Source: an archaeon (GTDB lineage: Archaea; Nanobdellota; Nanobdellia; Woesearchaeales; GW2011-AR9). Taken from it: a stretch of 64,000 bases of DNA. The translations under genes and the position numbers were made by a program. Below, in pieces: positions 2,000 through 14,957 of the stretch. Under the pieces are notes generated by a model. It was not told the origin of the DNA, did not search any database, and saw only the letters and a list, made by a program, of their open reading frames with translations. Location: positions 8,731 to 72,730 of the forward strand of contig NZCK01000024.1 of assembly GCA_002688265.1 (NCBI GenBank). Direction: 5' to 3'. Numbering within the stretch: position 1 is the first letter of the stretch; every line of letters starts with the position of its first letter.

Positions 2000-2281
2000 T
2001 TGGAGACAAATAAAATGAATAAATTATTAGTAAGTATTGTTGGTGCTGCAATCTTAAGCACCACAACAGGATGTTCAAGAATTTCAGATTACATCATGCC
2101 AGAATGGGAATATCCAAACTTATGCACAGATGAATATTTTGTTAGTGGTCCTGAAGCACCCATACAAGATGAAGAAAGCGAAACTCCTGCAGTTAATTAT
2201 GATAACCATTTAATGGTTGTTCCAGAGTTCGATTTTGAAAGTTGGATTTTTAAAAAACCAGAAGAAAATTATTCACCTTAA
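2000..2281 (+). CDS. small putative lipoprotein
   Basis: MNKLLVSIVGAAILSTTTGCS is a signal peptide plus a lipobox-like Cys. ATG at 2015 is a more likely start than TTG at 2000. Confidence 0.5.
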   Translation: METNKMNKLLVSIVGAAILSTTTGCSRISDYIMPEWEYPNLCTDEYFVSGPEAPIQDEESETPAVNYDNHLMVVPEFDFESWIFKKPEENYSP

Positions 2282-2291
2282 AATTATTTTA

Positions 2292-3527
2292 TTATTCCGC
2301 TGAAGTTTTACCAAAACCAACAGCAACATAAGCTAAGATTTCTAAACTACCAGAATTCTCGCCACCCAAAGTATCTTCTTGCCTTGGAGAAAGTGGTGAA
2401 TATCCTACTCTAAATCCAAAAGGTAACACACCCCCTAACTTAGCATCAAACCTTAACGTAGCACTTGGTAAAATTAATTGCTCAGCTTGCACTCCCCCCT
2501 CAACAGAATTTGTTCCAGGTAAAACTAAAACACTAAACCCTGGTTGAATATGATAATCTCCTGCTATTAAAAAACCAAAATTTACATTACCTTGAACTGA
2601 TTGAGAATAATCGTGTTCTTTGTAAAACATCCCCGGGCCAGGAGCCGTTGCACTTAACATACTCCCTTGCTCTTCTGCATTATAAACGTCAGCGCCAAAC
2701 TGCCCTGTTGCTCTGAATTCTGCTTGCAAATCAAAAAAACCTTTTACAAAATATAAACCAAACATACCGGCAAACCTTGCAGTATGTTCATGATTTTCAA
2801 ATCCAGAAACATTAGAATTAAACCCTGGACGAAATTCATAAACTGCATCTAATTTTAAAACTGTACCATCTTTAAGATTTAAAGCACGATCTTCTTCTAA
2901 CTTTCTTAATTGACCAGTTAAAATTGATCTGTGGACAAAATGATTGTCAGGAAACAGGCCAGATTCTGGTGCTGCTGGCCAACCATAAGTTTTGCCAGCA
3001 AACTCTTGAGTTAATGATCCAGAAAATATTTTCTCTTCGTCTGTTGCTAACCGTAACCTTCCCCCAAACTCACTGCCACTTACTTCTTTATCTTTTTCTC
3101 TATCTCCTTCTGCAGTATAAACTAAATGGTCTCCCTGAACAATGTATTTTACAAAAGGTGCTACTGAAAAATTAGCAATTGGGTTTCTTAACATCAACTC
3201 TAAATTAGATTCGCTAGTTGTAATTGTTCCAAGCAAATCTAACGGAGAGTTACCTAACTCAGTGTAGAGTTGAATTTTTACTAGAGGAGCAAAATAACCA
3301 TCAGAAAAATGTAAAAGAGGAGTATCAACTCCTGCTACTGCAGTGAAATGATAATCTTGCCTTGGTTCAAAATCTGGTTTTTCTGCTGCTGCTTCAACAT
3401 CAGAATCTTCATGAACTTGAACGTGCGTTGGTTCATCAAAAACCCTTTGTGGTTCTTCTGCTTGAGCGAAATTTGGAATACCTAAAGCAAGCACAGCCGC
3501 TAACAACTTTGATCTAAGTGAATTCAT
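2292..3527 (-). CDS. secreted beta-rich protein (outer-membrane-barrel-like composition)
   Basis: 411 aa. Signal peptide with an AxA site (LALGIPNFAQA|EE). The rest is Gly/aromatic-rich with alternating hydrophobic strand-like segments (FGFRVGYSPL, LEILAYVAVGFG). No TM anchor. Confidence 0.6.
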   Translation of the reverse strand: MNSLRSKLLAAVLALGIPNFAQAEEPQRVFDEPTHVQVHEDSDVEAAAEKPDFEPRQDYHFTAVAGVDTPLLHFSDGYFAPLVKIQLYTELGNSPLDLLGTITTSESNLELMLRNPIANFSVAPFVKYIVQGDHLVYTAEGDREKDKEVSGSEFGGRLRLATDEEKIFSGSLTQEFAGKTYGWPAAPESGLFPDNHFVHRSILTGQLRKLEEDRALNLKDGTVLKLDAVYEFRPGFNSNVSGFENHEHTARFAGMFGLYFVKGFFDLQAEFRATGQFGADVYNAEEQGSMLSATAPGPGMFYKEHDYSQSVQGNVNFGFLIAGDYHIQPGFSVLVLPGTNSVEGGVQAEQLILPSATLRFDAKLGGVLPFGFRVGYSPLSPRQEDTLGGENSGSLEILAYVAVGFGKTSAE

Positions 3528-3648
3528 ATAATTTTGCGTTTATTACCACTATATAATGGTTTCTAGTTTGGAGACAATAGTTTTTTGTTTTGAATAAGTA
3601 AATATCAGAACAGAAGCATTAATAACCTCTTTTAATTTTATTGTCCCC

Positions 3649-4494
3649 ATGAAAACAGTAAAGTCTTTTGATGGTACCAAAATTGCATATTACAAACGTC
3701 AAGGAAATAAAGAAAAACCAACTCTGGTTTTCTTGCATGGGGTTGGTGGTAACTATACTACTTGGAACAAGGAACTAGAATTTTTTGAAAAGAAAAAATA
3801 TCCTTGCATTGCAGTTGACTTAAGGGGACATGGGGAAAGTGACGTGCCAGATGAATTCGAAAAGTATTCCACTGAAGCTTTTGCAAAAGATTTAGATGTA
3901 ATCTTAGACAAAGAAAAAATTGAATCATTCGTATTAATTGGACACAGCCTTGGTGGCTGCATTGCACTAACTTTTCATTTGCTCAGTAAAAAATCGGCTG
4001 AAGCAATCACCCTAATTGAACCATCTATTGTTTACCCTTTCAACCACGATCAACTTCTTAATCACAGCTCATTCACAACCAAACTGCTACGAAAAATTGC
4101 TTATAACCATAAACTAAGAAGTGAACATTTCCCCCATTTTCAAGATATTGACTTATCACTAAAAGGAGTAACTGAATACGCACACATCATTAAACACCTA
4201 TTACAAATTACCCCCATTAGAAGTATTATTTACTCGCTAGACCAAAACGAAAAATATATGCATGAACATTTCAAAGATATGAAAAAATTTGTAAAATCTT
4301 TTGAACATCCGCTCTTAGTAATTAGCTCTGATGATGATGATGTTTGTCTCCCTGAAAATGCGAAAGCAATTTGTCAACTAAACAAAAAACATGCAACTTT
4401 TTACTTATTGTCACATGCTGGACACAAATCAATCATTACCCACCCAAAAGAAGTTTCATTCACAATTTTTAGTTTTTTAGAACATGTTAAGTGA
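3649..4494 (+). CDS. alpha/beta-fold hydrolase
   Basis: 281 aa. Contains an HGVGGN oxyanion-hole motif, a GHSLGG nucleophile elbow and a C-terminal AGH. Confidence 0.85.
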   Translation: MKTVKSFDGTKIAYYKRQGNKEKPTLVFLHGVGGNYTTWNKELEFFEKKKYPCIAVDLRGHGESDVPDEFEKYSTEAFAKDLDVILDKEKIESFVLIGHSLGGCIALTFHLLSKKSAEAITLIEPSIVYPFNHDQLLNHSSFTTKLLRKIAYNHKLRSEHFPHFQDIDLSLKGVTEYAHIIKHLLQITPIRSIIYSLDQNEKYMHEHFKDMKKFVKSFEHPLLVISSDDDDVCLPENAKAICQLNKKHATFYLLSHAGHKSIITHPKEVSFTIFSFLEHVK

Positions 4495-4518: not shown

Positions 4519-6048
4519 TTAATTAACTAAATAAGTTCTTTTGATTTTTTTCTTATCAGATTCAAACAATTGGTGGTTGTAAGGATAAACTTTGACTTTG
4601 ATATTCTTTAACTCAGGATCACCCTTAGAAATTTCTAAATAATCAGCGTTAAACTTTCCCAAATACTTTAGAATATTCTTTCGACAAACTCTCTCAAAGT
4701 TAGACCTACATTTTGACCCTTTCTTTAACTCAATATGAACCTCTAAAACATCTTGCATTTTTTTATTTGACGTGCGAGACAACTTAAAATGATTGATTTT
4801 CTTCTCTGCATCCTTATCTTGAAAAAGACATAGTTCTATTTGATTTGGATAAATGTTGGCAGCACCAAAAGTAATTATGTTCCCACTCCTCCCAAAAACT
4901 GAAAAGAAAGGCAGCGGCAATATCTCTCTAAAATGTTTGTAATTAGCAAAATTTTCTTTGAACTTTGGGTCGTGTTTTCTTAAGATACTGATTACATTAG
5001 CATAAGAAAATTTTCGGCCTCGATCTTTCAAATTGTACCTTATCTTTGGATGGGCAATATCTGCATTTAACAACGTGAAAAGTAACTCAGGGGGTGAGTT
5101 TTTTTCAGGTGGGCCTTCTTCAATATGACATAACAAAGGATTATATTGGAAAATCATTGGAACAGATTCTTGATTAAACAATTCATTACAAAACTCTGGA
5201 TTACTAGCCGCTAACTTACGAATATATGTACAAAAAGTACTTTCAAAACCAACACCAATATCTAAATCTGATGCACCATACCCAGAAACAATTAAAGAAC
5301 CTTTAGGCATTAACTGCTCCAAATATCTTAAAGATTTGATACTAATCCCTTCCCCTCCTATTGCAAGATCAATTTTGTATTTGTCCAAATTAATATGTTC
5401 ACGTAAATAAGTGATTAATTGCCGAATAAAAGGAGGATAACCCGCAATCAAATAATGCTCCTCTGGACCAAACTCTTCAAGTGTGTCCAAAATGTTTTCC
5501 ATGTCTTCTCCAATATTCTTAGCTAAGCTGGCATAGGAAGTTAATTCGCCAAACTTGGCACCAGTAATCCAAGGACCCATTACCCAGGTACTTAGAACAA
5601 TCGTAGGTTTTGATTGAAACATATAATGAAAATCAAAAATTACCTGGCTCAATAAAACGTCTTCCTCAGTTTTATTCTGAATCCAAATTGTTGGTTTGCC
5701 GGTCGATCCTGAACTTTCATAAATCATCCCATCTTTTGGTAAAATGCCCCCTGCACACCGTGATCTCAAAGGATACTTCTGGATATAATTGTGTTTGTCC
5801 ATAACAGGTATTTTTTCCCAAGAAGTCGTTACTTTGAATTTATTTTTTTTCAAGAATTTTTGATATGCTGGCACATGATTCTTAGCATGCTCAAACACAA
5901 TATTAGCACGTTTTTTTGAAATTGTTTCAAGAAGATGTGAAGGGGCTTTTTTCAATAACTTTTCAACTAAGGCAGGATCAAAATTCATTGAAGCATTTTC
6001 AAGTTTTTCTTCAATTTGTAATACTTTAAACTTTAACTCACTAAACAT
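4519..6048 (-). CDS. adenylate-forming enzyme, PaaK / coenzyme F390 synthetase-like
   Basis: 509 aa. The SSGSTGKPT adenylation motif is characteristic of the phenylacetate-CoA ligase / F390 synthetase family. Confidence 0.7.
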   Translation of the reverse strand: MFSELKFKVLQIEEKLENASMNFDPALVEKLLKKAPSHLLETISKKRANIVFEHAKNHVPAYQKFLKKNKFKVTTSWEKIPVMDKHNYIQKYPLRSRCAGGILPKDGMIYESSGSTGKPTIWIQNKTEEDVLLSQVIFDFHYMFQSKPTIVLSTWVMGPWITGAKFGELTSYASLAKNIGEDMENILDTLEEFGPEEHYLIAGYPPFIRQLITYLREHINLDKYKIDLAIGGEGISIKSLRYLEQLMPKGSLIVSGYGASDLDIGVGFESTFCTYIRKLAASNPEFCNELFNQESVPMIFQYNPLLCHIEEGPPEKNSPPELLFTLLNADIAHPKIRYNLKDRGRKFSYANVISILRKHDPKFKENFANYKHFREILPLPFFSVFGRSGNIITFGAANIYPNQIELCLFQDKDAEKKINHFKLSRTSNKKMQDVLEVHIELKKGSKCRSNFERVCRKNILKYLGKFNADYLEISKGDPELKNIKVKVYPYNHQLFESDKKKIKRTYLVN

Positions 6049-6137
6049 AAGTGTACTTATGAAAAAACTTTATAAAAACCCGTGTTTTAACTTAATAGTG
6101 ATTAAAACCAACAATCTTTATATATGATGTCTAGTAT

Positions 6138-8258
6138 TTGTCTGTTATGAGTAACATTTTTCCATCAGATTTAGAAGCAAGAATTCTGAATAATCAAATT
6201 ATTGCTAGGACTCGAGATAGTGGGTTAGTAAGAAAACCAATTGCGACACGTTTTGCTCCAGAATTTCGTCATACAACAATCAAATATATCACTGCAGGGA
6301 TGGAACTTGCTGAAGCAGGAAGTGAGTTCTCCTGGGAAGAGTTATGGAACGAATATGCAAGAGTTATCGGTTGTCAAGAAACTGGGAGTGAGCTGGCAGA
6401 ATTTACAAAAAAGATTGATCATTGGAATTCATTATGGTTTATGTATTCTGCACTTGAGTTTGCAGCAGAAGTCTTGCAAGCTGATAGAGAACAGTTTTAC
6501 CGAAGAGATGTGCCTGACAATTCTTTTACTAGCGAAACATTCTTGCAAGGCAGATTATTTGGAACTGTATTTGGAGGAAAAGCGCTACTTAAGTTCATTG
6601 AAAAAACTGCTCCAAATTTTTCAAAAGCATCTAGTTTTAGAAGTGAAGAAATTGATTCTGAAGACACAGACAGGCAAGAAAGTATTCGAAGCCTTATTCA
6701 TTTTCCAGAAAACTTGAATGGAGAATTAATGGAAGTTCTCCGTGTAAGAGATCCTACTATATTACAAAGAACATTTGATATTTATCAAGATCAGGCAAGC
6801 GACGCCCTTCAGTATGATACTTGGATTACCGAAGGAGTATTTAACTATGGAACAAACAGAACATTAGGGGAGTTTGGACACATAGAAGTTAGCCCAGAAG
6901 AATTGCCCGTTGGAACTACAAAATTCTATGCAGCTTTTCCTGCCGGGACTGAAAGGGCAACTGCTTTTGGAAAAGCGTTGTTGAATTCTAATCTCTCTGA
7001 TGCGTGGGTTCTTGCGAAAAGTATTGGAAATGCCCTGTACGACAAAGCAATAATGTGGGCAACACTTCCAAAAAGGCACCGTGAATTAGCACTGACATTT
7101 GATGCTAGATCGGAAGAAGTCTCCAATGGTGCTGCCCTAGCCACACGTTTAAATGATGAATTAGAAATTCAGGCTGCAAAATTATCTGAAGAAAGAGCAC
7201 AAGTAGAAGAACAAAAAGCAAGAGCAGATGCTGCTGAAAGAAGGATTGAATTGTTGGAAGGTGCAGGATTACGGCATGATGCTATCGCTTCTGTGCGCGA
7301 TGGACTGGCATTCCACCAATCAACTATATTTTCTTCTGTTTGTAATAATTTATTAGCTGCGTACCAAGCCGCTAATTCTGGCGACCCCAACTTTACAGAT
7401 TATATTAATGCCTTTGATAAAAAACTTAAATTTAGATTTAGAGGTAAGCAAGATCTTCAAAAAAGTGATTTAGAATCAAGACTTTCTGGAAAAATTAGTG
7501 AGAAGCCAGGAAGATGGTCAATTACTTATGAACAACTAGTTAAATTTCATGAACAAGTTCTGGAAAGATTAGAGGGAGATATTTCAAATGAAGCTTATCT
7601 TCAATTGCAAGAAGTTTTTTCTCCTTTGCATGAGTTATTAGAACATAGGCAATCTGCACGCTCTAGGATTAAAGACTTTGAATCAAGAGGAAGAGGAGGG
7701 GTTGTAGCTAAAGAATTTCCTCTCGAAAATATGTTAACAGAAGCAGAAGCTTTGGCTCGAAAAAAATTAGGAGAAGAATGGGTTTCCGAAATTCATGTTG
7801 ACACAGATTATGTGCCTACAGTTAAATCCAAAAGAACTTTTGTCGATAACATTTATGACTTAATAAAAAATAGCGTTGAAGCAGGTGCAACTAAAGTAGA
7901 TTTAGTTGCTGCAGACTTTGCTGAATTTTCTTATGATGAACTATATGGTAATTTTCTAATTCAAGATGGAGAACTTCCAATTGCCTACATCTGTCTTAAA
8001 GATAATGGAGGAGGTTACCCTCATGCGAAAGCAACTACTGCAGAAATAAATGATTATAATGGTGAAATTACAAACAGGTCAACAAGGGCTGCTGCAGACG
8101 GTGGGGGAGAAGGTACTAAAAACTTGCATGATTTGATCACAACTGATTTTCATCGAGGGAAACTAAAAGGGCTATATCACGCCGAAAGGGGGCCTGAGAC
8201 GCACGGAACAGAATTTTATCTCTTCTTTTACTCAAAAGATTTAGCAACTTTAAAATAG
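6138..8258 (+). CDS. coiled-coil protein with C-terminal GHKL (Bergerat-fold) ATPase domain
   Basis: 706 aa; ATG at 6147 is an alternative start. Contains N-box DLIKNSVEAGATKVDL, G1 LKDNGGGY, G2 DGGGEGTKNL and a terminal HGTEFYLFF. A charged coiled coil lies mid-protein (LSEERAQVEEQKARADAAERRIELLEG). The N-terminal ~330 aa are unrecognised. Confidence 0.6.
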   Translation: MSVMSNIFPSDLEARILNNQIIARTRDSGLVRKPIATRFAPEFRHTTIKYITAGMELAEAGSEFSWEELWNEYARVIGCQETGSELAEFTKKIDHWNSLWFMYSALEFAAEVLQADREQFYRRDVPDNSFTSETFLQGRLFGTVFGGKALLKFIEKTAPNFSKASSFRSEEIDSEDTDRQESIRSLIHFPENLNGELMEVLRVRDPTILQRTFDIYQDQASDALQYDTWITEGVFNYGTNRTLGEFGHIEVSPEELPVGTTKFYAAFPAGTERATAFGKALLNSNLSDAWVLAKSIGNALYDKAIMWATLPKRHRELALTFDARSEEVSNGAALATRLNDELEIQAAKLSEERAQVEEQKARADAAERRIELLEGAGLRHDAIASVRDGLAFHQSTIFSSVCNNLLAAYQAANSGDPNFTDYINAFDKKLKFRFRGKQDLQKSDLESRLSGKISEKPGRWSITYEQLVKFHEQVLERLEGDISNEAYLQLQEVFSPLHELLEHRQSARSRIKDFESRGRGGVVAKEFPLENMLTEAEALARKKLGEEWVSEIHVDTDYVPTVKSKRTFVDNIYDLIKNSVEAGATKVDLVAADFAEFSYDELYGNFLIQDGELPIAYICLKDNGGGYPHAKATTAEINDYNGEITNRSTRAAADGGGEGTKNLHDLITTDFHRGKLKGLYHAERGPETHGTEFYLFFYSKDLATLK

Positions 8259-8285
8259 AAAAAAAAGAAAAATTATTGAAAAAAC

Positions 8286-8981
8286 TTAACTAGAATAGCG
8301 ATCTAAAAAGATGTTAGGATCATAATGCATTGCCTTAACTTCTGTTCCCATCTGCATTCGATGAAGTGTTAAATCACCCTCACTTACAGGTTCCCCTGTT
8401 GTCTTGTCTAAAGCAGCCATCTTGTATGCGGTAAAAACTGCATCAAAAAGATTTGCAATTTCATTAACAGGGTCACTTCCTTTTCTTTGAACAAATACCA
8501 CTGGACCAACTCCAGCTTCTGTCTGAGGGATTATGGAACTCTTAAACAAAGGGTCCTCATAAACTAGTTCGGGTTCTGCTGTATAAAACGCTGCAATAAC
8601 TAAAGGGTCTGTCTGACTAGAAGAATTGGTGGTATTCATATAATTTGATAAAAACCGTACTCCTGATATTTCTTCAGCAGAGTCAACTCTATCTTCAAGA
8701 TACTCTCCGGTTCCTGCTTCACCTAGTAGAACTGGCACTTCAAGATATTTTAAATCACGATCAATAAACATTATTTGAATAGGACGGCCCTCTTGTAACG
8801 CAGCACCTATGTGTTCTTTCCCAGAAACAGCATTGTCTTCACAATGTAACCTCTCAGGCAAAGTTAAACCATGCAATTCAGCCAACTCTTCCCTATTACC
8901 CACATATACAGACTGGAGTCTTAATCTATCTCCGTGATTGTTCTCTACAGCAAGAATATTAACTTCAGGATTAGTTGTCAT
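8286..8981 (-). CDS. receiver(CheY)-like domain protein, paralogue A
   Basis: 231 aa. Shares ordered motifs with the next gene: ILAVENN, FIDRDLKYLEV, GVRFLS, AAFYTAE, GPVVFVQRKGSDPVNEI. Confidence 0.5.
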   Translation of the reverse strand: MTTNPEVNILAVENNHGDRLRLQSVYVGNREELAELHGLTLPERLHCEDNAVSGKEHIGAALQEGRPIQIMFIDRDLKYLEVPVLLGEAGTGEYLEDRVDSAEEISGVRFLSNYMNTTNSSSQTDPLVIAAFYTAEPELVYEDPLFKSSIIPQTEAGVGPVVFVQRKGSDPVNEIANLFDAVFTAYKMAALDKTTGEPVSEGDLTLHRMQMGTEVKAMHYDPNIFLDRYSS

Positions 8982-9098
8982 AATTAATCATCTCCATTTA
9001 TTGATAATAATTTTTTCTAACAATTCTATTTAAACTGAGTGCTTCTAAAAAATATAGTTCTAAAAAGTTAAATAAATAAAGAAAAGTAAAGAAAAAAA

Positions 9099-9926
9099 TT
9101 ATTGGGCTTGGAAGTCATCATAAGCGTTAGCTATTGTGCTTGGATTATATTTTCCTTCCGCTCTAATAAAATCATTGAACTCTTCATAAAGGCCAATGAA
9201 ATCACTAGGAACAAAATTTGTATCTGCCACCATCCTAGCTAAAGTTTTTCTCATATCTGCTGCTTCATAAGGGGCAGGTGCTTCATCAAACATTCCCTTT
9301 TTTGATACGGTGTGAACAATACTTCCTGCTTCTAATAAGGATCCTACTTCATTTGTAGGGTCTTCTCCTTTTTGTTGAACAAATATCATTGGCCCTTTTC
9401 CAGTTGCCATATACTTAGACAAATCTTTAAACTTTGAGTCTTCCTTCACTCCAGTAGATTCAGCTGTGTAAAATGCAGCAACGTCAATTGGACGACAATA
9501 GCCTTCCATTTGAAAATGAGCATAAACAACATCTGATAAAAACATAACACCATCACGACGATCTGATCCAGAAGGTCTTTCCATGGCCTGAATTACATCT
9601 TCATTTATTAAAACTTCAAAGTATTCTAAATCTCGATCAATAACAGCCAAAGGAAGAACGTTAGTAGTGTCGCCATCTCTTAAAAAATCAAGAGCGTCTC
9701 TTGCGTTATCTTTAAATGTTGGGGTTTCCTCTAACTTTAACCCATATATAATCCCCAAGTCATCTTTAATTGCTTGGTATACATTAAGAACTTTTTGAGC
9801 GTCACGCCCATTATTCTCAACCACTAAAACTTCTGTTTCTGCCAATGCATCTAAAGATTCGCTTTGTAAAGTAATCTCAGTCATTATTATTTCATCTCCA
9901 TGTGAATTTAATTGTGTTTTCACCAC
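9099..9926 (-). CDS. receiver(CheY)-like domain protein, paralogue B
   Basis: 275 aa. Motifs are VLVVENN, VIDRDLEYFEV, GVMFLS, AAFYTAE and GPMIFVQQKGEDPTNEV. It also has an ~80-aa C-terminal extension. Confidence 0.5.
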   Translation of the reverse strand: MVKTQLNSHGDEIIMTEITLQSESLDALAETEVLVVENNGRDAQKVLNVYQAIKDDLGIIYGLKLEETPTFKDNARDALDFLRDGDTTNVLPLAVIDRDLEYFEVLINEDVIQAMERPSGSDRRDGVMFLSDVVYAHFQMEGYCRPIDVAAFYTAESTGVKEDSKFKDLSKYMATGKGPMIFVQQKGEDPTNEVGSLLEAGSIVHTVSKKGMFDEAPAPYEAADMRKTLARMVADTNFVPSDFIGLYEEFNDFIRAEGKYNPSTIANAYDDFQAQ

Positions 9927-10003
9927 TTATCAATAGTTTTTATTTAAAAACGTTTATGTTCTGCAGTATATGTATCTCATTATAAGTGACGTTTTACTAT
10001 GAT

Positions 10004-10993
10004 TTATTGTACTCCTAACTGCAAAATATTACTAGAACTTTCTAAAGATTCTGCCTCTCCAACTAAAGTTACAGGATATCCTTCATTCGATGAAAGAGTC
10101 ATCTCGCCATAGAAATCATACAAATCAATAGCGTCGCCCTCTAATTCATAAGTTAAACGATCAATCACTTTTAGATTTCCCTCGCCTGCTGGAAAATACA
10201 TATATGAAAAAGAAATGTCATCTGTTGTAATAGTATCATACCGAAGAGCGTCAATCTCAATTTCTATCTCTGACTCACTCAAAATTGAAACTCCATTCAA
10301 ATGTATCTCTGAAATTGTTCCCTCCAAAGTTGTAGTGTGAGCATTAACTTTGAAGCGCCCCACAAAATCTGTTAAATCAATGGTTACTTTTGATTTGGCT
10401 TCAAGTAAATCTCCATTAATTCTAACACTAGAACCAAGGTTACTTGCAATAAAAGATATATCAGAAATTGAAGCAGTGGCATCAATTTCCGGAATATTAG
10501 AAAATTCTAATTCAAAAGCAATAGGATCATTTGTTCGACTAGTATCGACTGTTGGAATTGTTCTGCTAGTAGAATCATCGTTGGAGTTTGATTCTGAATT
10601 TTGATTGTCCCCTTGGTTATTTGCTGTCGTTTCTGATTCTGGAAGTGGTATACTCCCCTCACCTGCTTCTCCTTCATTAGAAGAACCATCTTCTGAATTT
10701 CCTGAAGCTTCTTGGACAGAGGTAGTTGTTGTAGTTCCGCTATCTCCAACAGGAACGTCTGCTAGAGTTGTAGTAGCAGCACCTAAGGTCCCAATATAAC
10801 CTCCAGTTATTCCACCATTCAACACCAAGGTTAAACCACCAACTATTGCAATCACTGCTAAAATAGTTAGAACAATTGTTTGAGCGGAATGGTTGGTCCC
10901 CATTTCTTCTTCTTTAACTTTAGAATTATCTTTACTTTCTTTTGAAATTTTGTCTAATACAGAAACACCTTCTTTTTTTACACCATCAACCAT
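10004..10993 (-). CDS. membrane-anchored protein with Thr/Ser/Asn-rich stalk
   Basis: 329 aa. The layout is a charged N-terminus, one TM (IVLTILAVIAIVGGLTLVL), a GAATTT motif, a low-complexity T/S/N/E linker and a ~180-aa C-terminal domain. Confidence 0.5.
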   Translation of the reverse strand: MVDGVKKEGVSVLDKISKESKDNSKVKEEEMGTNHSAQTIVLTILAVIAIVGGLTLVLNGGITGGYIGTLGAATTTLADVPVGDSGTTTTTSVQEASGNSEDGSSNEGEAGEGSIPLPESETTANNQGDNQNSESNSNDDSTSRTIPTVDTSRTNDPIAFELEFSNIPEIDATASISDISFIASNLGSSVRINGDLLEAKSKVTIDLTDFVGRFKVNAHTTTLEGTISEIHLNGVSILSESEIEIEIDALRYDTITTDDISFSYMYFPAGEGNLKVIDRLTYELEGDAIDLYDFYGEMTLSSNEGYPVTLVGEAESLESSSNILQLGVQ

Positions 10994-11056: not shown

Positions 11057-11428
11057 TTATCTTTTTTGTAAAAGTCTTCTAAATGCACCTGTTTCTATTT
11101 TTGCACTAATTTTTGTTTGAACATGATACTTTTGACATAATTGCATATTCTGCTGCATCCTAGCTAATAGTTTAGCCTGATTGATTGCACCTTTAGTGTT
11201 CCGTAAATTTTCAAAAGAAAATCCAATGGTTTTTTTCTTTTTCTTTGCGATTTTTAAAGTAATTTGATCAAGGCCCGCTCTGAGGTAATGAAAAGAATCT
11301 TTGATGTGAATTTTTTCTGCTCCAAGAATAGATTTATCTTTTCTTCCCTCAATTTCTTGACGAAGTTTCTTCTCGTTGGAAGATGACATTCTTCTAATAT
11401 TATTGTATTTGTTTGCTTTGGAATTCAC
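11057..11428 (-). CDS. hypothetical basic protein
   Basis: 123-aa Lys/Arg-rich ORF. No motif recognised. Confidence 0.35.
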   Translation of the reverse strand: MNSKANKYNNIRRMSSSNEKKLRQEIEGRKDKSILGAEKIHIKDSFHYLRAGLDQITLKIAKKKKKTIGFSFENLRNTKGAINQAKLLARMQQNMQLCQKYHVQTKISAKIETGAFRRLLQKR

Positions 11429-11514: not shown

Positions 11515-12672
11515 TTATTTTATTGCTTGCAAAAGTCTCATTTCTGTTCTATACACCTCCTCAGATATTGCTTTTTGAGTTTTTAGGCCAATAAGGGCTT
11601 TATCAAAAGGAAGCCCACTCCCCCCTAGCATTGAATTATATAACTGACCAAAATTCCCTTTTTGAATTTGGTTCCTTGATCCATGAGAAGAAAATAAATA
11701 TTCCATAGCTAAAGCGACCCCATTACTCCCCTCTCTTGGAAGAATTTTTTGATAAGAGATGAACCGTAAGTAAGTTGCTAAATCATGTCTCACTGCCAAC
11801 TGTTCTCCTTCGGAAAATCTGGAACAAATTCCTTGCAAAGCATTTGGAACACTCTCACCATGATAAGTGCTTAAAACTAAATGACCTGTGCTGGCTGCAG
11901 TTAACGCCGCCCGAATTGTTTCTTTATCTCTTAACTCCCCAACATAAATAATATCGGGTTTGTCTCGAAGCGAATCCTTCACACCCTGTTCGAAACTAGC
12001 CACATGAAGTCCCACTTGACGCTGCACGACTTGTGTTGAACCATAAGATCTAAACAAGGCCTCAATCGGGTCTTCTAAAGTTATTAATTTTGCAGACCCA
12101 CTTCTCTTTATTGCACGCTCTTTAATAATCCCATCAACAATTGAAGTTAACGTTGTGGATTTACCTGAGCTGGTCGATCCTGTTACCAAAATTAATCCAC
12201 TTGATTCAGTTGCAATTAAACCATACACTGAAGTTGGAAACCCAATGTCACTAATTGACATGATCTTACTAGGCAGCTTACGCATAGTCACCGCAAACCC
12301 CATATAGGCGCTACGAATACTTACTCTAAACCGGCAACCATACAATTCTCTTGCCAAATCTAATCCTTTATTGTTTAATAGAACTTCATATTCTTTATCT
12401 GAACAAATTCCTCTGACAATCTGTTCAACAAACTCTTCTGAAAGAGGATCGACTTTTGTTTGTCTATGAAGAAAAGAGGGGCGATCTCCCGTCGCTGTAC
12501 TTGGGCCTTTAGCTAAACTTTTGGGAAGAGGAACTAATCCTCTCCCTGGATAACTAATACTTGGTGCAGACCCCACAGTGAAATGGAAATCAGAAACTTG
12601 ACCAATGGTTAATAGTTCTTGAAAGGTTAACTTGTTGTCCGGGAAAGCAATTTTGTCCAATTCACAAACCAT
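11515..12672 (-). CDS. pilT: PilT-family type IV pilus (retraction-type) ATPase
   Basis: 385 aa. Collinear with bacterial PilT: SDFHF, RFRVS, MRKLPSKI, Walker A LVTGSTSSGKSTT, ITLEDPIE, IIYVGELRDKETI and TGHLVLSTYHG. Confidence 0.8.
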   Translation of the reverse strand: MVCELDKIAFPDNKLTFQELLTIGQVSDFHFTVGSAPSISYPGRGLVPLPKSLAKGPSTATGDRPSFLHRQTKVDPLSEEFVEQIVRGICSDKEYEVLLNNKGLDLARELYGCRFRVSIRSAYMGFAVTMRKLPSKIMSISDIGFPTSVYGLIATESSGLILVTGSTSSGKSTTLTSIVDGIIKERAIKRSGSAKLITLEDPIEALFRSYGSTQVVQRQVGLHVASFEQGVKDSLRDKPDIIYVGELRDKETIRAALTAASTGHLVLSTYHGESVPNALQGICSRFSEGEQLAVRHDLATYLRFISYQKILPREGSNGVALAMEYLFSSHGSRNQIQKGNFGQLYNSMLGGSGLPFDKALIGLKTQKAISEEVYRTEMRLLQAIK

Positions 12673-12812
12673 TTTTTAAAAAAACTTCATTTTTATTTAA
12701 AAAAATGGCTACGATGGAAGCTATGTTTTAGAGCATAGTTTTTTAAAACAGAAACGTTCTGAAGCCCATAAAGAAACACTTAGCCAATTAGTGGAAGAGT
12801 GGGACCAAAAAA

Positions 12813-13016
12813 ATGAAGATTACTGTAACAAACGAGAAAGAAGCAAGTCGTAGAACCATTGAAACTTATGCTACAACAGTAAAAGATTTGCTACAAGAAT
12901 TAAAAGTTAATTCTGAAACTGTCTTAATTGCAAGAAATTCAGAAATTCTGCTCCCTACTGAAACACTAAAAGATGGCGATGAAATATTGCTGCTAAGTGT
13001 GATTTCAGGAGGCTAA
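12813..13016 (+). CDS. ThiS/MoaD/SAMP-type ubiquitin-like sulfur carrier
   Basis: 67 aa, the size of a beta-grasp domain. It ends ...LLLSVISGG-stop, a C-terminal di-glycine. Confidence 0.75.
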   Translation: MKITVTNEKEASRRTIETYATTVKDLLQELKVNSETVLIARNSEILLPTETLKDGDEILLLSVISGG

Positions 13017-13021
13017 AAATT

Positions 13022-13978
13022 ATGTCAAAATGTGATAAATGTGAACACAAATCAGTAATAATGCTGCAACATGGGCCACTTTGTAGTAAACACTTCGTAA
13101 GTTATTTTGAAAATAAAGTCTTCAAAACTATTCAAAAATTTAAACTAATAAACCGTGATGATATTATTTGTGTTGCAACCTCTGGGGGCAAAGATTCGCT
13201 AACAGTTCTGTATCTAGTAAAACAATATTTAAAACGTCAGGGGATGGACTCAACAACTTTGACTGCTCTTGCAATCAACGAAGGAATCGCAGATTATCGT
13301 GAAAAAACACTTGAAGACTTACGCAAATTTTGTAATGATTATGATGTCGATCTAACTGTAGCGACGTTTGAAGAACACTTAGGGGCAACCCTTGATGAAG
13401 CATACCCTAAAATTAACAAGATTACTGGGAAAAAACCTTGCAATATTTGTGGGGTATGGCGCAGATACTTGTTGAATAAGTACGCCAAAAAATTAGGTGC
13501 TACAAAACTGGTTACAGGCCACAACATGGATGATGAATCACAAGCCATCATGATGAACATGTGTAAAGCAAATACTTCGCTTGCAGCAAAACTTGGGCCA
13601 ATGGGTGGAGTGGCTGCGCATGAAGGTTTTACTCGAAGAATTAAACCATTATATTTGTGTAGCGAAAAAGAAACCCGGCTTTACACTTTCTTAAAACAAT
13701 GGAAAGTAGAATACACTGAATGCCCGAATGTAATTGCAAGTTATCGTGCAGAAATTAGAGATTCTTTGAATCAATTGGAAGAGAAATATCCTGGAACTAA
13801 AAATGGGATTGTTAAATCATTTTTGGATATGTTACCTTTGTTGCAATCACGAGAATTAAACAAAGATTCAAAATATTCTGGGCCGCAAACTTGTGCCCTT
13901 TGCTCTGAACCGTCAAACGCAACCGAATGTAATGCATGCAAACTAAAAACTATTTTGGATGGTGTTAACAATGAGTGA
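13022..13978 (+). CDS. ttuA: TtuA/Ncs6-family tRNA 2-thiolation PP-loop ATPase
   Basis: 318 aa. PP-loop SGGKDS. Zn-ribbon-like CxxC pairs at both ends (CDKC..., CALC...CNAC). CNIC plus a later Cys could be Fe-S ligands. Confidence 0.8.
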   Translation: MSKCDKCEHKSVIMLQHGPLCSKHFVSYFENKVFKTIQKFKLINRDDIICVATSGGKDSLTVLYLVKQYLKRQGMDSTTLTALAINEGIADYREKTLEDLRKFCNDYDVDLTVATFEEHLGATLDEAYPKINKITGKKPCNICGVWRRYLLNKYAKKLGATKLVTGHNMDDESQAIMMNMCKANTSLAAKLGPMGGVAAHEGFTRRIKPLYLCSEKETRLYTFLKQWKVEYTECPNVIASYRAEIRDSLNQLEEKYPGTKNGIVKSFLDMLPLLQSRELNKDSKYSGPQTCALCSEPSNATECNACKLKTILDGVNNE

Positions 13979-14957
13979 TACTGATAGATATATTAGACAA
14001 ACTCCATTGATTGGAGAAGAGGGTCAGATTAAATTGGCTGACTCGCACGTTGTTGTAATAGGGGTTGGTGCACTAGGAACAGTAGCTGCAGAACTGCTTG
14101 TTCGATCTGGTATTAACCACATTACTTTAATTGATAGAGACATTGTAGAAACATCAAATTTACAAAGACAATCACTTTACATTGAAGATGATGTTCTGAC
14201 TAGTAAAGTTTTATGTGCGAAAGAAAAATTATTGGCAATAAATAAAGATGTTAAGATTGAGATCCATGCTGTGAATTTGAGTAAAAGAAATATCTCTGAT
14301 TGTGTTCCAAAAAATGTTGATTTGATTTTAGATTGTTGCGACACTATGTCACTTAGGTGGCTAATAAATGATTACACACGCAAACATAAAATTCCTTGGA
14401 TCTTTGCTTCAGCTGTGGGTTGGCAAGGAATGTTACAACTGATTTTGCCAGATTCTAATTGCTTGGCCTGCAATTTTCCAAAAGAAGCGCAAGGTGAAAC
14501 TTGCGCAGAAGCAGGAGTTATGGCTATGACCTCCCACACTATTGCTAGTCTGCAGAGTAATTTGGCTTTGCGGTTTTTGGTTGGAGAAAAGATAGAAGAA
14601 TTTTGTGGCACTTTGTTCTCTTTGGATTTGCAATCTCTGGATATAAGAAAATTTAAAGTAAAGAAAAAAGAAAATTGTGGGCCTTGTAAAAAAGAGTTTA
14701 TGTTGTTAGAAAATGAAGGGGATCAAGAACAAATTGTGCGCTTTTGCTCGTCTGGACAATTTCAAGTGCATAAAACAAATTCTGTGGATTTGAATAAATT
14801 GTTAATGGTTGTAAAAAAAGAATTCGAATTTGTGCACCTTGATGAAGTTTGTTTAAGGTTTGGACCAGTAACAGTATTTTCTGATGGGAGAGCATTGATC
14901 AAGAGTAATTCTGAAGCAGAAGCAGTTAGTATATACGATAAATATGTTAGGAATTGA
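13959..14957 (+). CDS. E1-like MoeB/ThiF/UbaA adenylyltransferase
   Basis: 332 aa. Rossmann loop VIGVGALGT and two CxxC pairs (CLAC, CGPC). There is a ~90-aa C-terminal extension. ATG at 13971, overlapping the upstream stop, is the likely start. Confidence 0.8.
   Translation: MVLTMSDTDRYIRQTPLIGEEGQIKLADSHVVVIGVGALGTVAAELLVRSGINHITLIDRDIVETSNLQRQSLYIEDDVLTSKVLCAKEKLLAINKDVKIEIHAVNLSKRNISDCVPKNVDLILDCCDTMSLRWLINDYTRKHKIPWIFASAVGWQGMLQLILPDSNCLACNFPKEAQGETCAEAGVMAMTSHTIASLQSNLALRFLVGEKIEEFCGTLFSLDLQSLDIRKFKVKKKENCGPCKKEFMLLENEGDQEQIVRFCSSGQFQVHKTNSVDLNKLLMVVKKEFEFVHLDEVCLRFGPVTVFSDGRALIKSNSEAEAVSIYDKYVRN

What the first reader, a model, noticed from the sequence alone, without database searches (positions are those of the whole stretch)
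6138..9926. Uncharacterised three-gene module: C-terminal GHKL ATPase protein plus two divergent receiver-like paralogues
The 706-aa protein has three parts:
- About 330 aa that I cannot assign.
- A charged coiled coil.
- A compact Bergerat-fold ATPase at the extreme C-terminus.

The ATPase N-box, DLIKNSVEAGATKVDL, is of the MutL/Hsp90/MORC kind (NSxDAGAT). It is not the histidine-kinase kind, and no transducer domain follows it.

Two paralogous genes (231 and 275 aa) lie convergent to it. They share ordered blocks that fit the beta1, beta3, beta4 and beta5 landmarks of a CheY-like receiver:
- VENN.
- IDRDL(K/E)Y.
- GV(R/M)FLS.
- AAFYTAE.
- GP..FVQ.KG.DP.NE.

The candidate phospho-acceptor Asp, the Thr and the Lys are all present. 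The N-terminal acidic pair is replaced by E-N, and there is an insertion after beta3.

I do not know of a described system that combines a MORC/MutL-type GHKL module with tandem pseudo-receiver proteins. It could be a signalling switch or a defence-type module. A membrane-anchored protein and a PilT ATPase follow on the same strand as the paralogues.
Basis: partly seen in the sequence, partly recalled or inferred. Interest (0 to 1): 0.7.

Follow-up and report, generated by a model that had tools for sequence, protein, structure and literature searches.

The report
Divergent archaeal two-component signalling module
The three genes are real, but they look like a very diverged sensor histidine kinase with two receiver-type partner proteins, so this is a hidden variant of ordinary two-component signalling in an uncultured marine archaeon rather than a new MutL/MORC-type system.

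Summary
All three ORFs and the quoted motifs exist, and the two small proteins are true paralogues (33% identity, E=5e-25).

**Receiver side.** The receiver-like reading holds at fold level. An AlphaFold model (pLDDT 84) is a (beta-alpha)5 domain, and its best PDB matches are receiver domains. Glu-Asn, Asp, Thr and Lys sit at the canonical active-site positions.

**Kinase side.** The reading "MutL/MORC-type, not histidine-kinase-type" is contradicted.
- All top-50 PDB and top-17 viral-library fold matches of the 706-aa protein are histidine kinases.
- Distant relatives pass Pfam HATPase_c.
- All 16 family members examined carry a conserved His motif just after the coiled coil.

**Gene neighbourhood.**
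- In nine independent archaeal-type loci the kinase-like gene is followed tail-to-tail by one or two receiver-like genes. A tenth locus has a weak receiver-like candidate one gene away.
- A PaaK-like adenylate-forming enzyme and a membrane-anchored protein are usually adjacent, in varying order.
- The PilT gene is not part of the module.

**Unusual features.**
- Pfam HisKA and Response_reg models do not detect these proteins.
- The sensor domain is unassigned.
- The His-to-N-box spacing is about 200 aa.
- The window's receivers have Asn at the metal-binding position, which makes them pseudo-receivers by definition.

**Verdict.** New variant of a known kind, of moderate interest. Phosphotransfer is inferred, not shown.

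The parts
6138..8258 (+). Sensor histidine-kinase-like gene. It is 706 aa from TTG 6138, but more likely 703 aa from ATG 6147.
   Evidence: ORF. Public gene calls give 703 aa. Fold matches are all histidine kinases. The family was recovered by phmmer.
6117..6124 (+). TATA-like box TTTATATA, about 23-30 nt upstream of ATG 6147. This spacing suggests a leaderless or near-leaderless transcript.
   Evidence: Sequence read. The promoter role is inferred from archaeal promoter geometry, not tested.
6165..6986 (+). N-terminal domain of about 275 aa (residues 10-283) with no family assignment; presumed cytoplasmic sensor domain. It has helices plus four strands in the order b-a-b-long a-b-b. Near-invariant residues are K49, Y50, C74, F120, R202 and Y264.
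   Evidence: AF2 pLDDT is mostly 85-93. The domain is conserved in 12 homologues. No Pfam hit and no PDB sequence hit.
6993..7265 (+). Long charged helix (residues 286-376); presumed dimeric coiled coil or signalling helix.
   Evidence: AF2 predicts a single helix 286-376 with low pLDDT as a monomer.
7275..7277 (+). Codon of His380 (706-aa numbering) in the motif AGLRHDAIASVRDG; candidate phospho-acceptor.
   Evidence: His380 is invariant in alignment A6. An equivalent His motif is present in all 16 family members, 197-252 aa before the N-box Asn. It sits in the first turn of helix 379-413.
7272..7769 (+). Helical region (residues 379-544) between the His motif and the ATPase domain. It is presumed to be a DHp-like bundle with about 90-130 aa of extra helices.
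   Evidence: AF2 helices at 379-413, 417-430, 442-452, 464-478, 484-491, 496-516 and 529-544. Foldseek alignments to DHp+CA structures span 245-290 columns.
7782..8228 (+). C-terminal Bergerat-fold (CA-type) ATPase domain, residues 549-697. Its motifs are the N-box D574/N578, G1 D622-G626, G2 G657/G659 and T691.
   Evidence: These residues are near-invariant in the 13-sequence alignment. Weak HATPase_c_3 hit. Relatives pass HATPase_c. The ThkA CA domain matches at TM 0.75-0.77.
8286..8981 (-). Receiver-fold paralogue 1 (231 aa). Active-site positions are E13-N14 after b1, D74 after b3 (codon 8760-8762), T134 at the end of b4 and K167 after b5. It has a disordered insert at 81-104 and two extra C-terminal helices.
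   Evidence: AF2 pLDDT 84.2, pTM 0.83. The best Foldseek PDB hits are receiver domains. These residues are invariant in the 6-sequence alignment.
9099..9926 (-). Receiver-fold paralogue 2. It is 275 aa from GTG 9926, but more likely 261 aa from ATG 9884. In 275-aa numbering the active-site residues are E37-N38, D97, T154 and K186.
   Evidence: One public call gives 261 aa. The L003 orthologue is 260 aa. The GGAGATGA motif precedes ATG 9884.
8988..8995 (-). GGAGATGA ribosome-binding-like motif 6 nt before ATG 8981. An identical motif lies at 9892-9899, 7 nt before ATG 9884. TATA-like TTTAAATA boxes lie at 9027-9034 and 9941-9948.
   Evidence: Sequences read. Function is inferred.
4519..6048 (-). 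PaaK-like adenylate-forming enzyme (509 aa); conserved neighbour of the kinase-like gene.
   Evidence: NCBIfam PaaK E=2.7e-9 (partial) and Pfam AMP-binding_C_2 E=0.002. Homologues are adjacent in L003, L005, L011, L013/14, L015, L017/18, L019 and L020/21.
10004..10993 (-). Membrane-anchored protein (329 aa): short N-terminal cytoplasmic tail, one TM helix, a Ser/Thr-rich linker and a conserved C-terminal domain. It is a frequent neighbour of the module.
   Evidence: Sequence. Homologues lie next to the module in L003, L004, L011, L013/14/16 and L015, and about 1 kb upstream in L020. No family hit.

Best explanation
The module is a deeply diverged two-component signalling system of an uncultured marine archaeon.

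**The kinase-like protein (703/706 aa).** It is a soluble sensor histidine-kinase-like protein with four parts:
- an unassigned N-terminal sensor domain;
- a long signalling coiled coil;
- a helical region that opens with a conserved His (H380);
- a C-terminal CA-type ATP-binding domain.

**The two convergent genes.** They encode stand-alone receiver-fold proteins with short helical C-terminal extensions and no recognisable DNA-binding domain.

**Proposed mechanism (inferred).**
1. A signal sensed by the N-terminal domain is passed along the coiled coil.
2. This controls ATP-dependent autophosphorylation at H380.
3. The phosphoryl group moves to Asp74 of the 231-aa protein and Asp97 of the 275-aa protein (Asp83 if it starts at ATG 9884).
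4. The receivers then act through protein-protein contacts. The likeliest targets are products of the conserved neighbours, the PaaK-like adenylate-forming enzyme and the membrane-anchored protein.

**Caveat on chemistry.** In the window's lineage the metal-binding residue DD2 is Asn, and the kinase His box has changed from H-x-x-[RK]-N to H-D-A-I. Phosphotransfer may therefore be slow, may depend on a different metal, or may be lost.

**Shown versus inferred.** Shown: the folds, the motifs, the paralogy and the conserved gene linkage. Inferred: kinase activity, the identity of the acceptor residues, and the output.
For: **Kinase side**
- All top-50 PDB Foldseek hits of the AF2 model (pLDDT 76.6; 79-91 over most of the ATPase domain) are histidine kinases. 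They include HK853 DHp-CA in complex with RR468, CckA, CpxA, KinB, RetS and ThkA CA (TM 0.75-0.77).
- The top 17 BFVD hits are histidine kinases too.
- Relatives P0010, P0013 and P0014 pass the Pfam HATPase_c gathering score over the whole model.
- Some relatives are named "sensor histidine kinase" by PGAP or IMG.
- N, G1 and G2 box residues are near-invariant.
- A His motif is present in 16 of 16 members directly after the coiled coil. In most members it reads H-[AG]-[IM]-[RK]-N. From my own knowledge, this resembles the H-E-L-R-[TN] and H-R-x-K-N boxes of HisKA and HisKA_2/HWE.

**Receiver side**
- The AF2 model (pLDDT 84.2, pTM 0.83) has b1-a1...b5-a5 topology, with E13/N14, D74, T134 and K167 at the C-terminal ends of b1, b3, b4 and b5.
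- The best PDB hits are receiver domains: Sln1 R1 (E=1.3e-4, TM 0.61), NarL, a bacteriophytochrome response regulator, and 3ilh.
- Those same residues are the invariant ones in the clade.
- Sister-clade homologues have a canonical acidic pair, D-D or E-D.

**Linkage**
- In nine independent loci the receiver-like gene or genes sit tail-to-tail 17-67 nt from the kinase-like gene: window, L003, L004, L005, L008, L011, L013/14, L015 and L020. Kinase identity to the window protein falls to about 20-25% across these loci. L017 has a weak candidate one gene away.
- Hits outside the HMM training set score E=1.9e-21, 8.2e-18 and 4.5e-16.
- The order and orientation of the PaaK-like and membrane-protein neighbours vary between loci. 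This argues against inherited synteny alone.

**Context**
- Archaeal two-component systems are typically a cytosolic kinase plus stand-alone receivers that act by protein-protein interaction (PMC5847659).
Against: - No Pfam HisKA-type or Response_reg match for any member. The window protein itself is below threshold even for HATPase_c_3.
- Profile searches against PDB sequences are non-significant, and MutL and histidine-kinase hits tie at E=0.3-0.9.
- hhalign of the receiver-like family against six canonical receivers aligns only beta1, with probability 20%.
- DD2 is Asn in both window paralogues, which makes them pseudo-receivers by the published definition. Many pseudo-receivers are not phosphorylated.
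- The His lies about 198 aa before the N-box Asn, against roughly 105-120 aa in textbook kinases (from memory). I could not see whether Foldseek aligned the DHp helices to the helix that carries His380.
- The N-box sequence is closer to MutL than to typical kinases.
- The genes are convergent, not co-transcribed.
- The receiver model rests on a 3-sequence alignment. Only 2 of 5 models had pLDDT above 80.
- Bacterial relatives (L009/L010) have no receiver-like neighbour.
Confidence: 0.55

Rival explanations
1. A phosphorylation-independent switch. The kinase-like protein keeps the histidine-kinase fold and binds ATP, but in the window's lineage the two paralogues are true pseudo-receivers. They would be regulated by binding to the kinase-like protein, by a ligand, or by dimerisation, not by Asp phosphorylation.
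For: - DD2 is Asn in all five window-clade receivers and in L011. DD2 binds the metal directly, and Asn is the commonest replacement in pseudo-receivers (PMC12632262).
- The kinase His box lost the [RK]-N residues in exactly the lineages where DD2 became Asn. Window, L003, L004 and L011 show both changes; L005, L008, L013, L015, L017 and L020 show neither.
- The receivers carry a large variable insert next to the active site.
Against: - D74, T134 and K167, which contact the phosphoryl group, are invariant, as are His380 and all ATP-binding motifs. That is unexpected if the chemistry were abandoned.
- An Asn side chain can still ligate a metal (general chemistry, not tested here).
- The His-box/DD2 correlation rests on at most two or three independent evolutionary events.
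Confidence: 0.28
2. One reading: a MutL/Hsp90/MORC-type GHKL ATPase working with pseudo-receivers as a new kind of switch or anti-phage defence module.
For: - The N-box NSVEAGAT resembles MutL's NSLDAGAT.
- The only Pfam hit of the window protein is HATPase_c_3 (E=0.03).
- A profile search gives MutL N-box hits at E=0.28-0.99.
- A bacterial HATPase_c_3/paraMORC-linked two-component-like pair exists (PMC8011034).
Against: - No MutL, Hsp90, GyrB or MORC structure appears among the top 50 PDB fold hits; all are histidine kinases.
- No transducer domain follows the ATPase domain.
- Relatives score as well or better on HATPase_c over its full length.
- PADLOC gives no meaningful hit.
- There is no Pfam match to HEF_HK or Response_reg_2.
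- The neighbours are metabolic or membrane genes, not restriction-modification or defence genes.
Confidence: 0.03
3. A Ser/Thr-type GHKL protein kinase (RsbW/SpoIIAB-like partner-switching logic) that phosphorylates or sequesters the small proteins, rather than a His-Asp relay.
For: Bacterial relatives (P0014, Desulfobacterales) sit next to a SpoIIE-type PP2C phosphatase and a DUF6272 protein. The DUF6272 sequence shows GHKL-like N and G2 motifs.
Against: - The conserved His motif and the DHp+CA-length fold matches point to histidine kinases.
- The partner proteins have a receiver fold with the Asp pocket conserved, not a STAS fold.
- The archaeal loci have no PP2C gene.
Confidence: 0.07
4. 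The three genes are neighbours only through inherited synteny among close relatives and have no functional link.
For: - L003 and L004 are collinear with the window over many unrelated genes, including ThiS, NcsA-like and ThiF genes.
- The genes are convergent, so they are not one transcript.
Against: - The kinase-receiver tail-to-tail pair persists in loci where everything else has changed or been rearranged: L005, L008, L011, L013, L015 and L020.
- It persists at 20-36% kinase identity.
Confidence: 0.05

Closest known systems
Archaeal two-component systems with a cytosolic sensor kinase and stand-alone CheY-like receivers (census of Galperin et al. 2018, PMC5847659; e.g. FilI with FilR1/FilR2: one kinase, two regulators)
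   Same: - Soluble kinase with an N-terminal sensor, a coiled coil, a His-bearing helix and a C-terminal CA domain.
- One kinase with one or two receiver-only partners encoded next to it.
- No DNA-binding output domain, so output is presumably by protein-protein contact.
   Different: - Not detected by Pfam HisKA*, HATPase_c (for the window protein) or Response_reg.
- The sensor domain is unassigned.
- His-to-N-box spacing is about 200-250 aa.
- The N-box is MutL-like in sequence.
- The receivers carry a 25-50 aa insert after beta3 and, in the window lineage, Asn at DD2.
- The genes are always convergent rather than in one operon.
HEF_HK (PF19191) / Response_reg_2 (PF19192) two-component-like pairs of bacteria, linked to HATPase_c_3/paraMORC and restriction-modification genes (Bellieny-Rabelo et al. 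2021, PMC8011034)
   Same: - A soluble kinase-like protein whose GHKL domain scores as HATPase_c_3.
- A His followed by an acidic residue.
- A tightly linked, strongly diverged (beta-alpha)5 receiver with loop extensions.
- Recognition by structure and motif rather than by standard Pfam models.
   Different: - No Pfam match to PF19191 or PF19192.
- Archaeal, not bacterial.
- The neighbours are a PaaK-like enzyme and a membrane protein, not restriction-modification systems.
- The acidic pair is not conserved in the window lineage.
Pseudo-receiver domains (Bourret-lab review 2025, PMC12632262)
   Same: The window paralogues lack one of the five catalytic residues. DD2 is replaced by Asn, which is the commonest replacement in pseudo-receivers. 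They also have altered loops near the active site.
   Different: - They keep D, T and K.
- They stay genetically paired with a kinase-like protein that keeps its His and ATP motifs.
- Sister-clade orthologues are full receivers by the five-residue rule.
MutL/Hsp90/MORC GHKL ATPases
   Same: Bergerat fold, and the N-box sequence NS(V/I)(E/D)AGA(T).
   Different: - No transducer domain.
- C-terminal rather than N-terminal position.
- The fold matches are histidine kinases only.

Membership tests
Sensor histidine kinase (DHp + CA) | CA domain: Bergerat fold with N, G1 and G2 boxes, placed C-terminal to a helical dimerisation region | tested here: met
   - AF2 plus Foldseek: all top-50 PDB hits are histidine kinases, with CA-only structures at TM 0.75-0.77.
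- D574, N578, D622, G626, G657 and G659 are near-invariant.
Sensor histidine kinase (DHp + CA) | Significant match to Pfam HATPase_c (PF02518) | tested here: inconclusive
   - The window protein gets only HATPase_c_3 at 14.8 bits against a cutoff of 25.
- Homologues P0010, P0013 and P0014 pass PF02518 gathering over positions 2-108 of 111.
- They are linked to the window protein by phmmer at E=2e-7 to 4e-4.
Sensor histidine kinase (DHp + CA) | Conserved phospho-acceptor His in DHp helix 1 (H-box) with a recognised HisKA-type profile | tested here: inconclusive
   - An invariant His motif is present in 16 of 16 members, at the start of the helix after the coiled coil.
- No HisKA, HisKA_2, HisKA_3 or HWE Pfam hit.
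- Spacing to the N-box is about 198 aa.
Sensor histidine kinase (DHp + CA) | Autophosphorylation on His and transfer to a receiver Asp | not testable with these tools
   Biochemistry is required.
Sensor histidine kinase (DHp + CA) | Cognate receiver encoded next to the kinase | tested here: met
   Nine independent loci have an adjacent convergent receiver-like gene, and a tenth (L017) has a weak candidate one gene away.
Receiver domain (CheY-like, Pfam Response_reg PF00072) | (beta-alpha)5 fold with a parallel five-stranded sheet | tested here: met
   - The AF2 model has pLDDT 84.2 and pTM 0.83, with elements b1-a1-b2-a2-b3-a3-b4-a4-b5-a5.
- The best Foldseek PDB hits are receiver domains (prob 1.00, TM 0.55-0.65 by target).
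Receiver domain (CheY-like, Pfam Response_reg PF00072) | Sequence-profile match to Response_reg | tested here: not met
   - No PF00072 hit for any of 8 members, even with max_evalue set to 10.
- A profile search against PDB sequences found nothing.
Receiver domain (CheY-like, Pfam Response_reg PF00072) | Phospho-acceptor Asp at the end of beta3, Thr/Ser at the end of beta4, Lys after beta5 | tested here: met
   - D74, T134 and K167 are at those positions in the model.
- They are invariant in the clade.
- Asp is invariant across both clades.
Receiver domain (CheY-like, Pfam Response_reg PF00072) | Acidic pair (DD) after beta1 that binds the divalent metal | tested here: not met
   - The window paralogues have E-N, so DD2 is Asn. 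They are pseudo-receivers by definition.
- Sister-clade homologues have D-D or E-D.
MutL/Hsp90/MORC-type GHKL ATPase | GHKL domain followed by a transducer (second) domain that completes the active site | tested here: not met
   The protein ends 9 residues after the last strand of the ATPase domain.
MutL/Hsp90/MORC-type GHKL ATPase | Closest structures or profiles are MutL, Hsp90, GyrB or MORC | tested here: not met
   - None appears among the top-50 PDB fold hits.
- There are only N-box-level sequence hits, at E=0.28-0.99.
HEF_HK / Response_reg_2 two-component-like system (PF19191/PF19192) | Match to the two Pfam models, and a restriction-modification gene neighbourhood | tested here: not met
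   No such Pfam hits. The neighbours are PaaK-like, hydrolase and membrane-protein genes.
Known anti-phage defence systems (PADLOC-DB 2.0) | Significant match of any component to a defence-system model | tested here: not met
   Only chance-level hits, at E of 0.02 or worse for the three proteins.

The most novel reading that the evidence does not exclude
In the window's lineage the pair would no longer be a His-Asp phosphorelay. It would be a new kind of ATP-driven switch, in which a histidine-kinase-fold ATPase with a MutL-like N-box and a remodelled His box (H-D-A-I) acts on receivers that have lost the metal ligand (DD2 = Asn). It could work through different chemistry or through nucleotide-dependent binding, to control a PaaK-like adenylate-forming enzyme and a surface protein. 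The joint change of His box and DD2 would record a co-evolved change of mechanism. The family would also add an unrecognised sensor domain and a hidden signalling system to small-genome archaea that are thought to be nearly devoid of two-component systems.
Probability: 0.2. Interest if true: 0.7.

Novelty: new variant of a known kind. Interest (0 to 1): 0.45.

Why it matters
Censuses of archaeal signalling count Pfam HisKA, HATPase_c and Response_reg hits, and they report few or no two-component systems in many uncultured, small-genome lineages (PMC5847659). This family is invisible to those models. Even so, it shows the folds, catalytic residues and gene linkage of a kinase-receiver pair in at least nine independent loci.

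If it is active, three things follow:
- Such censuses undercount archaeal signalling.
- The family supplies a new cytoplasmic sensor domain and an unusually spaced His box for study.
- It offers a natural contrast between full receivers (DD2 = Asp) and pseudo-receivers (DD2 = Asn) that are still paired with an intact-looking kinase. That contrast bears on the open question of how pseudo-receivers are switched.

The constant neighbourhood with a PaaK-like adenylating enzyme also gives a concrete candidate output to test.

Tried and rejected
**Searches that found little or nothing**
- Word-indexed homologue searches with the 706-aa and 275-aa proteins found only themselves. Only the alignment query and the exhaustive phmmer search found relatives.
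- The GTDB genome scan with the two-paralogue alignment used poor patterns and found nothing. A second scan found one locus, L011.
- The metagenome scan with the window-clade kinase alignment found nothing.
- Profile searches against PDB sequences were non-significant for the receiver family, the whole kinase family and the N-terminal domain.
- hhalign against canonical receivers aligned only beta1.
- Rfam and tRNA scans of the window were empty.

- The N-terminal domain fold could not be identified. Foldseek output for the full-length model is saturated by histidine-kinase hits in both libraries, and the model cannot be cropped. The strand-helix order resembles H-NOX/V4R-type sensors, but that is only my impression and is untested.

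**Readings rejected**
- A defence system: PADLOC gave nothing.
- PilT as part of the module: it is absent in L003.
- A MutL/MORC-type ATPase: contradicted by the fold matches.
- An operon made up of the whole minus-strand string: each paralogue has its own TATA-like box and GGAG motif, a T-rich tract follows the second paralogue, and an unrelated RNase P subunit-like gene lies in the string.

Full report
**1. What is in the sequence**

The window is archaeal. The same scaffold carries TBP, MCM and a ThiS/NcsA-like/ThiF/ThiI cluster. NCBI lists the large protein as "hypothetical protein CL619_04090 [archaeon]", from a Tara Oceans assembly. I could not verify a DPANN affiliation.

The two small proteins are clear paralogues at 33% identity, E=5e-25.

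Two start codons probably need correcting:
- Public gene calls begin the large gene at ATG 6147, giving 703 aa. A TATA-like TTTATATA lies 23-30 nt upstream.
- The second paralogue most likely begins at ATG 9884, giving 261 aa. One public call does this, the L003 orthologue is 260 aa, and both paralogues have an identical GGAGATGA 6-7 nt before that ATG.

**2. Sequence-level searches are nearly blind**

- Pfam gives only HATPase_c_3 at E=0.03 (residues 572-631, 14.8 bits against a cutoff of 25) for the large protein, and nothing for the paralogues.
- NCBIfam and PADLOC give nothing relevant.
- Word-indexed searches found only the proteins themselves.
- An alignment query found one orthologue, P0004.
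- The exhaustive phmmer search of 1.84 billion representatives found 12 relatives of the large protein. Two are full-length (P0005 at 45% and P0006 at 41%). Three share the N-terminal 380 aa (P0007-P0009). Seven share the C-terminal 170-260 aa (P0010-P0016, E=2e-7 to 1e-3).

**3. The large protein is histidine-kinase-like, not MutL/MORC-like**

*Sequence evidence*
- P0010, P0013 and P0014 pass the Pfam HATPase_c gathering score over essentially the whole model, with HATPase_c_3 scoring similarly or lower.
- PGAP and IMG already call P0014 and P0010 "sensor histidine kinase".
- In the 13-sequence alignment the N-box (D574, N578), G1 (D622, G626), G2 (G657, G659) and T691 are near-invariant.

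*The AlphaFold2 model* (13-sequence alignment, mean pLDDT 76.6) shows:
- an N-terminal domain at residues 10-283 (pLDDT mostly 85-93);
- one long helix at 286-376;
- a helical region at 379-544;
- an alpha/beta domain at 549-697 (pLDDT 79-91, apart from the lid).

*Fold matches*
- All 50 best PDB hits are histidine kinases. They include HK853 DHp-CA with and without RR468, LvrB, CckA, CpxA, KinB, RetS and DivL. Isolated ThkA catalytic domains match at TM 0.75-0.77 and rmsd 3.0-3.8 A.
- No MutL, Hsp90, GyrB or MORC structure appears.
- In the viral library the top 17 hits are also histidine kinases.

- It holds only at the level of the N-box motif. A family profile picks up MutL's VVKELVENSLDAGATRIDI at E=0.28-0.99, level with ThkA and YycG at E=0.7.
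- No transducer domain follows, and the protein ends 9 residues after the last strand.

**4. A candidate phospho-acceptor His**

All 16 family members examined have a His motif directly after the coiled coil, 197-252 residues before the N-box Asn.
- Most members read sG(D/G)(R/S)H(A/G)(I/M)(R/K)N.
- The window clade reads AGL(R/K)HDAI.
- L011 reads NASHHVSG.

In the window protein this is His380. It is invariant, together with G377, D381, A382, I383 and R387, among the three closest homologues. It lies in the first turn of helix 379-413.

From my own knowledge, H-x-x-[RK]-N resembles the HisKA box H-E-L-R-[TN] and the HisKA_2/HWE box H-R-x-K-N. No Pfam HisKA-type model matches, however. The His-to-Asn spacing is about 90-130 aa longer than in textbook kinases. 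I could not see which helices Foldseek aligned to the DHp. The assignment of His380 is therefore an inference.

**5. The paralogues have a receiver fold**

*Model*
- The AlphaFold2 model of the 231-aa protein used a 3-sequence alignment. The best model has pLDDT 84.2 and pTM 0.83, but only two of the five models were confident.
- Its elements run b1 9-12, a1 16-37, b2 46-48, a2 51-63, b3 70-73, a disordered insert at 81-104, a3 107-121, b4 129-134, a4 137-156, b5 161-166 and a5 171-190, plus two extra helices at 201-229.
- E13-N14 follow b1, D74 follows b3, T134 ends b4 and K167 follows b5. These are the canonical receiver active-site positions.

*Fold matches*
- The best PDB hits are receiver domains: Sln1 R1 8phx (E=1.3e-4) and 1oxk, NarL, the receiver of a fungal hybrid kinase in complex with its HPt protein, the bacteriophytochrome response regulator 6xvu, and 3ilh. 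All have probability 0.98-1.00 and target-normalised TM of 0.55-0.65.
- Rossmann-type dehydrogenases follow, with low TM and large rmsd.

*Conservation and limits*
- In the six-sequence clade alignment the invariant residues are E13, N14, D74, D76, L77, E81, F132, Y133, T134, G157, P160 and K167. The pocket itself is therefore the most constrained part.
- Sequence profiles do not detect the relationship.

**6. Pseudo-receiver status and a correlated change in the kinase**

Under the definition in PMC12632262, a receiver that lacks any of the five residues (DD, D, T, K) is a pseudo-receiver. DD2 binds the metal directly, and Asn is its commonest replacement. Both window paralogues have E-N, as do their orthologues in L003 and L004 and the L011 homologue. 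All of these are therefore pseudo-receivers that keep D, T and K.

Sister-clade homologues have a normal pair:
- VDDN and TEDQ in L005;
- VEDD in L008;
- QED in L013 and L015;
- VEDD in L020;
- LEDE in the weak L017 candidate.

The kinase His box tracks this. H-[AG]-[IM]-[RK]-N goes with DD2 = Asp, and HDAI or HHVS goes with DD2 = Asn. The correlation is suggestive, but it rests on at most two or three independent events.

**7. Gene linkage**

Local HMMs built from the receiver and kinase alignments, plus phmmer with the neighbouring proteins, were run over all fetched loci.

*Kinase-receiver pair*
- In nine independent loci the kinase-like gene is followed tail-to-tail, 17-67 nt apart, by one or two receiver-like genes.
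  - Two receiver genes: window, L003 and L005.
  - One receiver gene: L004, L008, L011, L013/14, L015 and L020/21.
- L017/18 has a weak candidate (E=0.022) one gene away.
- Hits outside the training set score E=1.9e-21, 8.2e-18 and 4.5e-16. The L011 receiver is weak (E=7.8e-4).
- L007 and L019 are too short to judge.

*Other neighbours*
- The PaaK-like adenylate-forming enzyme (window 4519-6048) is adjacent in nine loci. Depending on the locus it is divergent upstream, co-directional upstream, or downstream of the receivers.
- The membrane-anchored protein (window 10004-10993) is adjacent in six loci, and about 1 kb upstream of the kinase gene in L020/21, on either side of the pair.
- An alpha/beta hydrolase is often nearby.

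The rearrangements, together with kinase identities down to 20-36%, argue for a functional link rather than inherited synteny.

*What does not belong*
- PilT is present only in the window and is absent from the syntenic L003, so it is not part of the module.
- The bacterial relatives (Desulfobacterales, Desulfobotulus) lack all these neighbours. At least one sits next to a SpoIIE phosphatase and a DUF6272 protein.

**8. Interpretation**

The best-supported reading is a strongly diverged two-component system. It has a soluble sensor kinase with an unassigned sensor domain and two stand-alone receivers that act by protein-protein contact. That matches the general archaeal pattern (PMC5847659).
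- I put about 0.85 on the statement that these are a functionally linked kinase-fold/receiver-fold pair.
- I put about 0.55 on actual His380-to-Asp phosphotransfer in this lineage.
- The main rival is a phosphorylation-independent pseudo-receiver switch (about 0.28).
- The MutL/MORC or defence reading is disfavoured (about 0.03).

**9. Comparison with the literature**

The proteins here do not match those Pfam models, and their neighbourhood is different. I found no paper describing this family, and a search for DUF6272 returned nothing. The literature search was limited to open-access full text.

**10. Verdict**

This is a new variant of a known kind: a hidden, divergent two-component family. 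Its interesting details are the new sensor domain, the long His-to-ATPase spacing, the obligatory convergent arrangement, the pseudo-receiver state that changes together with the His box, and the constant PaaK-like neighbour. Interest is moderate at 0.45.

Noticed in passing
window 11515-12672 (-): A bacterial-type PilT/PilU retraction ATPase sits in an archaeal scaffold (TIGR01420 E=1.7e-70; best PDB hits are PilT at E=2.6e-45). It is absent from the otherwise syntenic locus L003, so it looks like a recent insertion or transfer. PilT-type ATPases are, to my knowledge, unusual in archaea.
   Followed up: partly
window 11057-11428 (-); L003 3657-3992; L004 4282-4650: A short ORF (110-123 aa) matches only the C-terminal half of RNase P protein component 3 (NF003023 E=3.5e-7, profile positions 116-174 of 217). 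It is conserved at this length in two related loci, so it may be a truncated or minimal Rpp30 homologue.
   Followed up: partly
window 2292-3527 (-); L008 36-989 (-): These proteins have a bacterial-looking signal peptide ending in A(Q/K)AEEP and a beta-rich, Gly/aromatic-rich body with no family hit. The signal-peptide region is shared between the window protein and a protein next to the kinase-like gene in L008 (E=2e-4). An Lgt (prolipoprotein diacylglyceryl transferase) gene lies on the same scaffold (L001 2913-3677).
   Followed up: partly
L009/L010 5573-9359: In Desulfobacterales, the kinase-like relative P0014 follows a SpoIIE-type PP2C phosphatase and a DUF6272 protein. The DUF6272 sequence shows GHKL-like motifs (ELAQNIAKYS and GAGLGF). 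This suggests a partner-switching-type context for the bacterial branch and a possible fold assignment for DUF6272.
   Followed up: partly
L019 2119-4360: The kinase-like gene is split into two overlapping ORFs (2119-3546 and 3482-4360). This is either a frameshifted pseudogene or an assembly error.
   Followed up: no
window 12792-15855: A ThiS-like, NcsA/ATP_bind_3, ThiF/MoeB-like and ThiI/THUMP gene cluster (sulfur-carrier and tRNA thiolation genes) lies next to the module. It is conserved in L003 and L004.
   Followed up: no
window 53588-60040 (+): A giant ORF of 2150 aa; not examined. Related scaffolds also carry very large ORFs, for example a 2711-aa Laminin_G_3 protein near P0010.
   Followed up: no
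L011 (CAYFJV010000001.1): This record is titled "uncultured Methanosarcinales archaeon", yet it carries the same PaaK-like, kinase, receiver and membrane-protein cluster as the low-GC marine archaeal scaffolds. The taxonomic label, or the distribution of the family, deserves a check.
   Followed up: no
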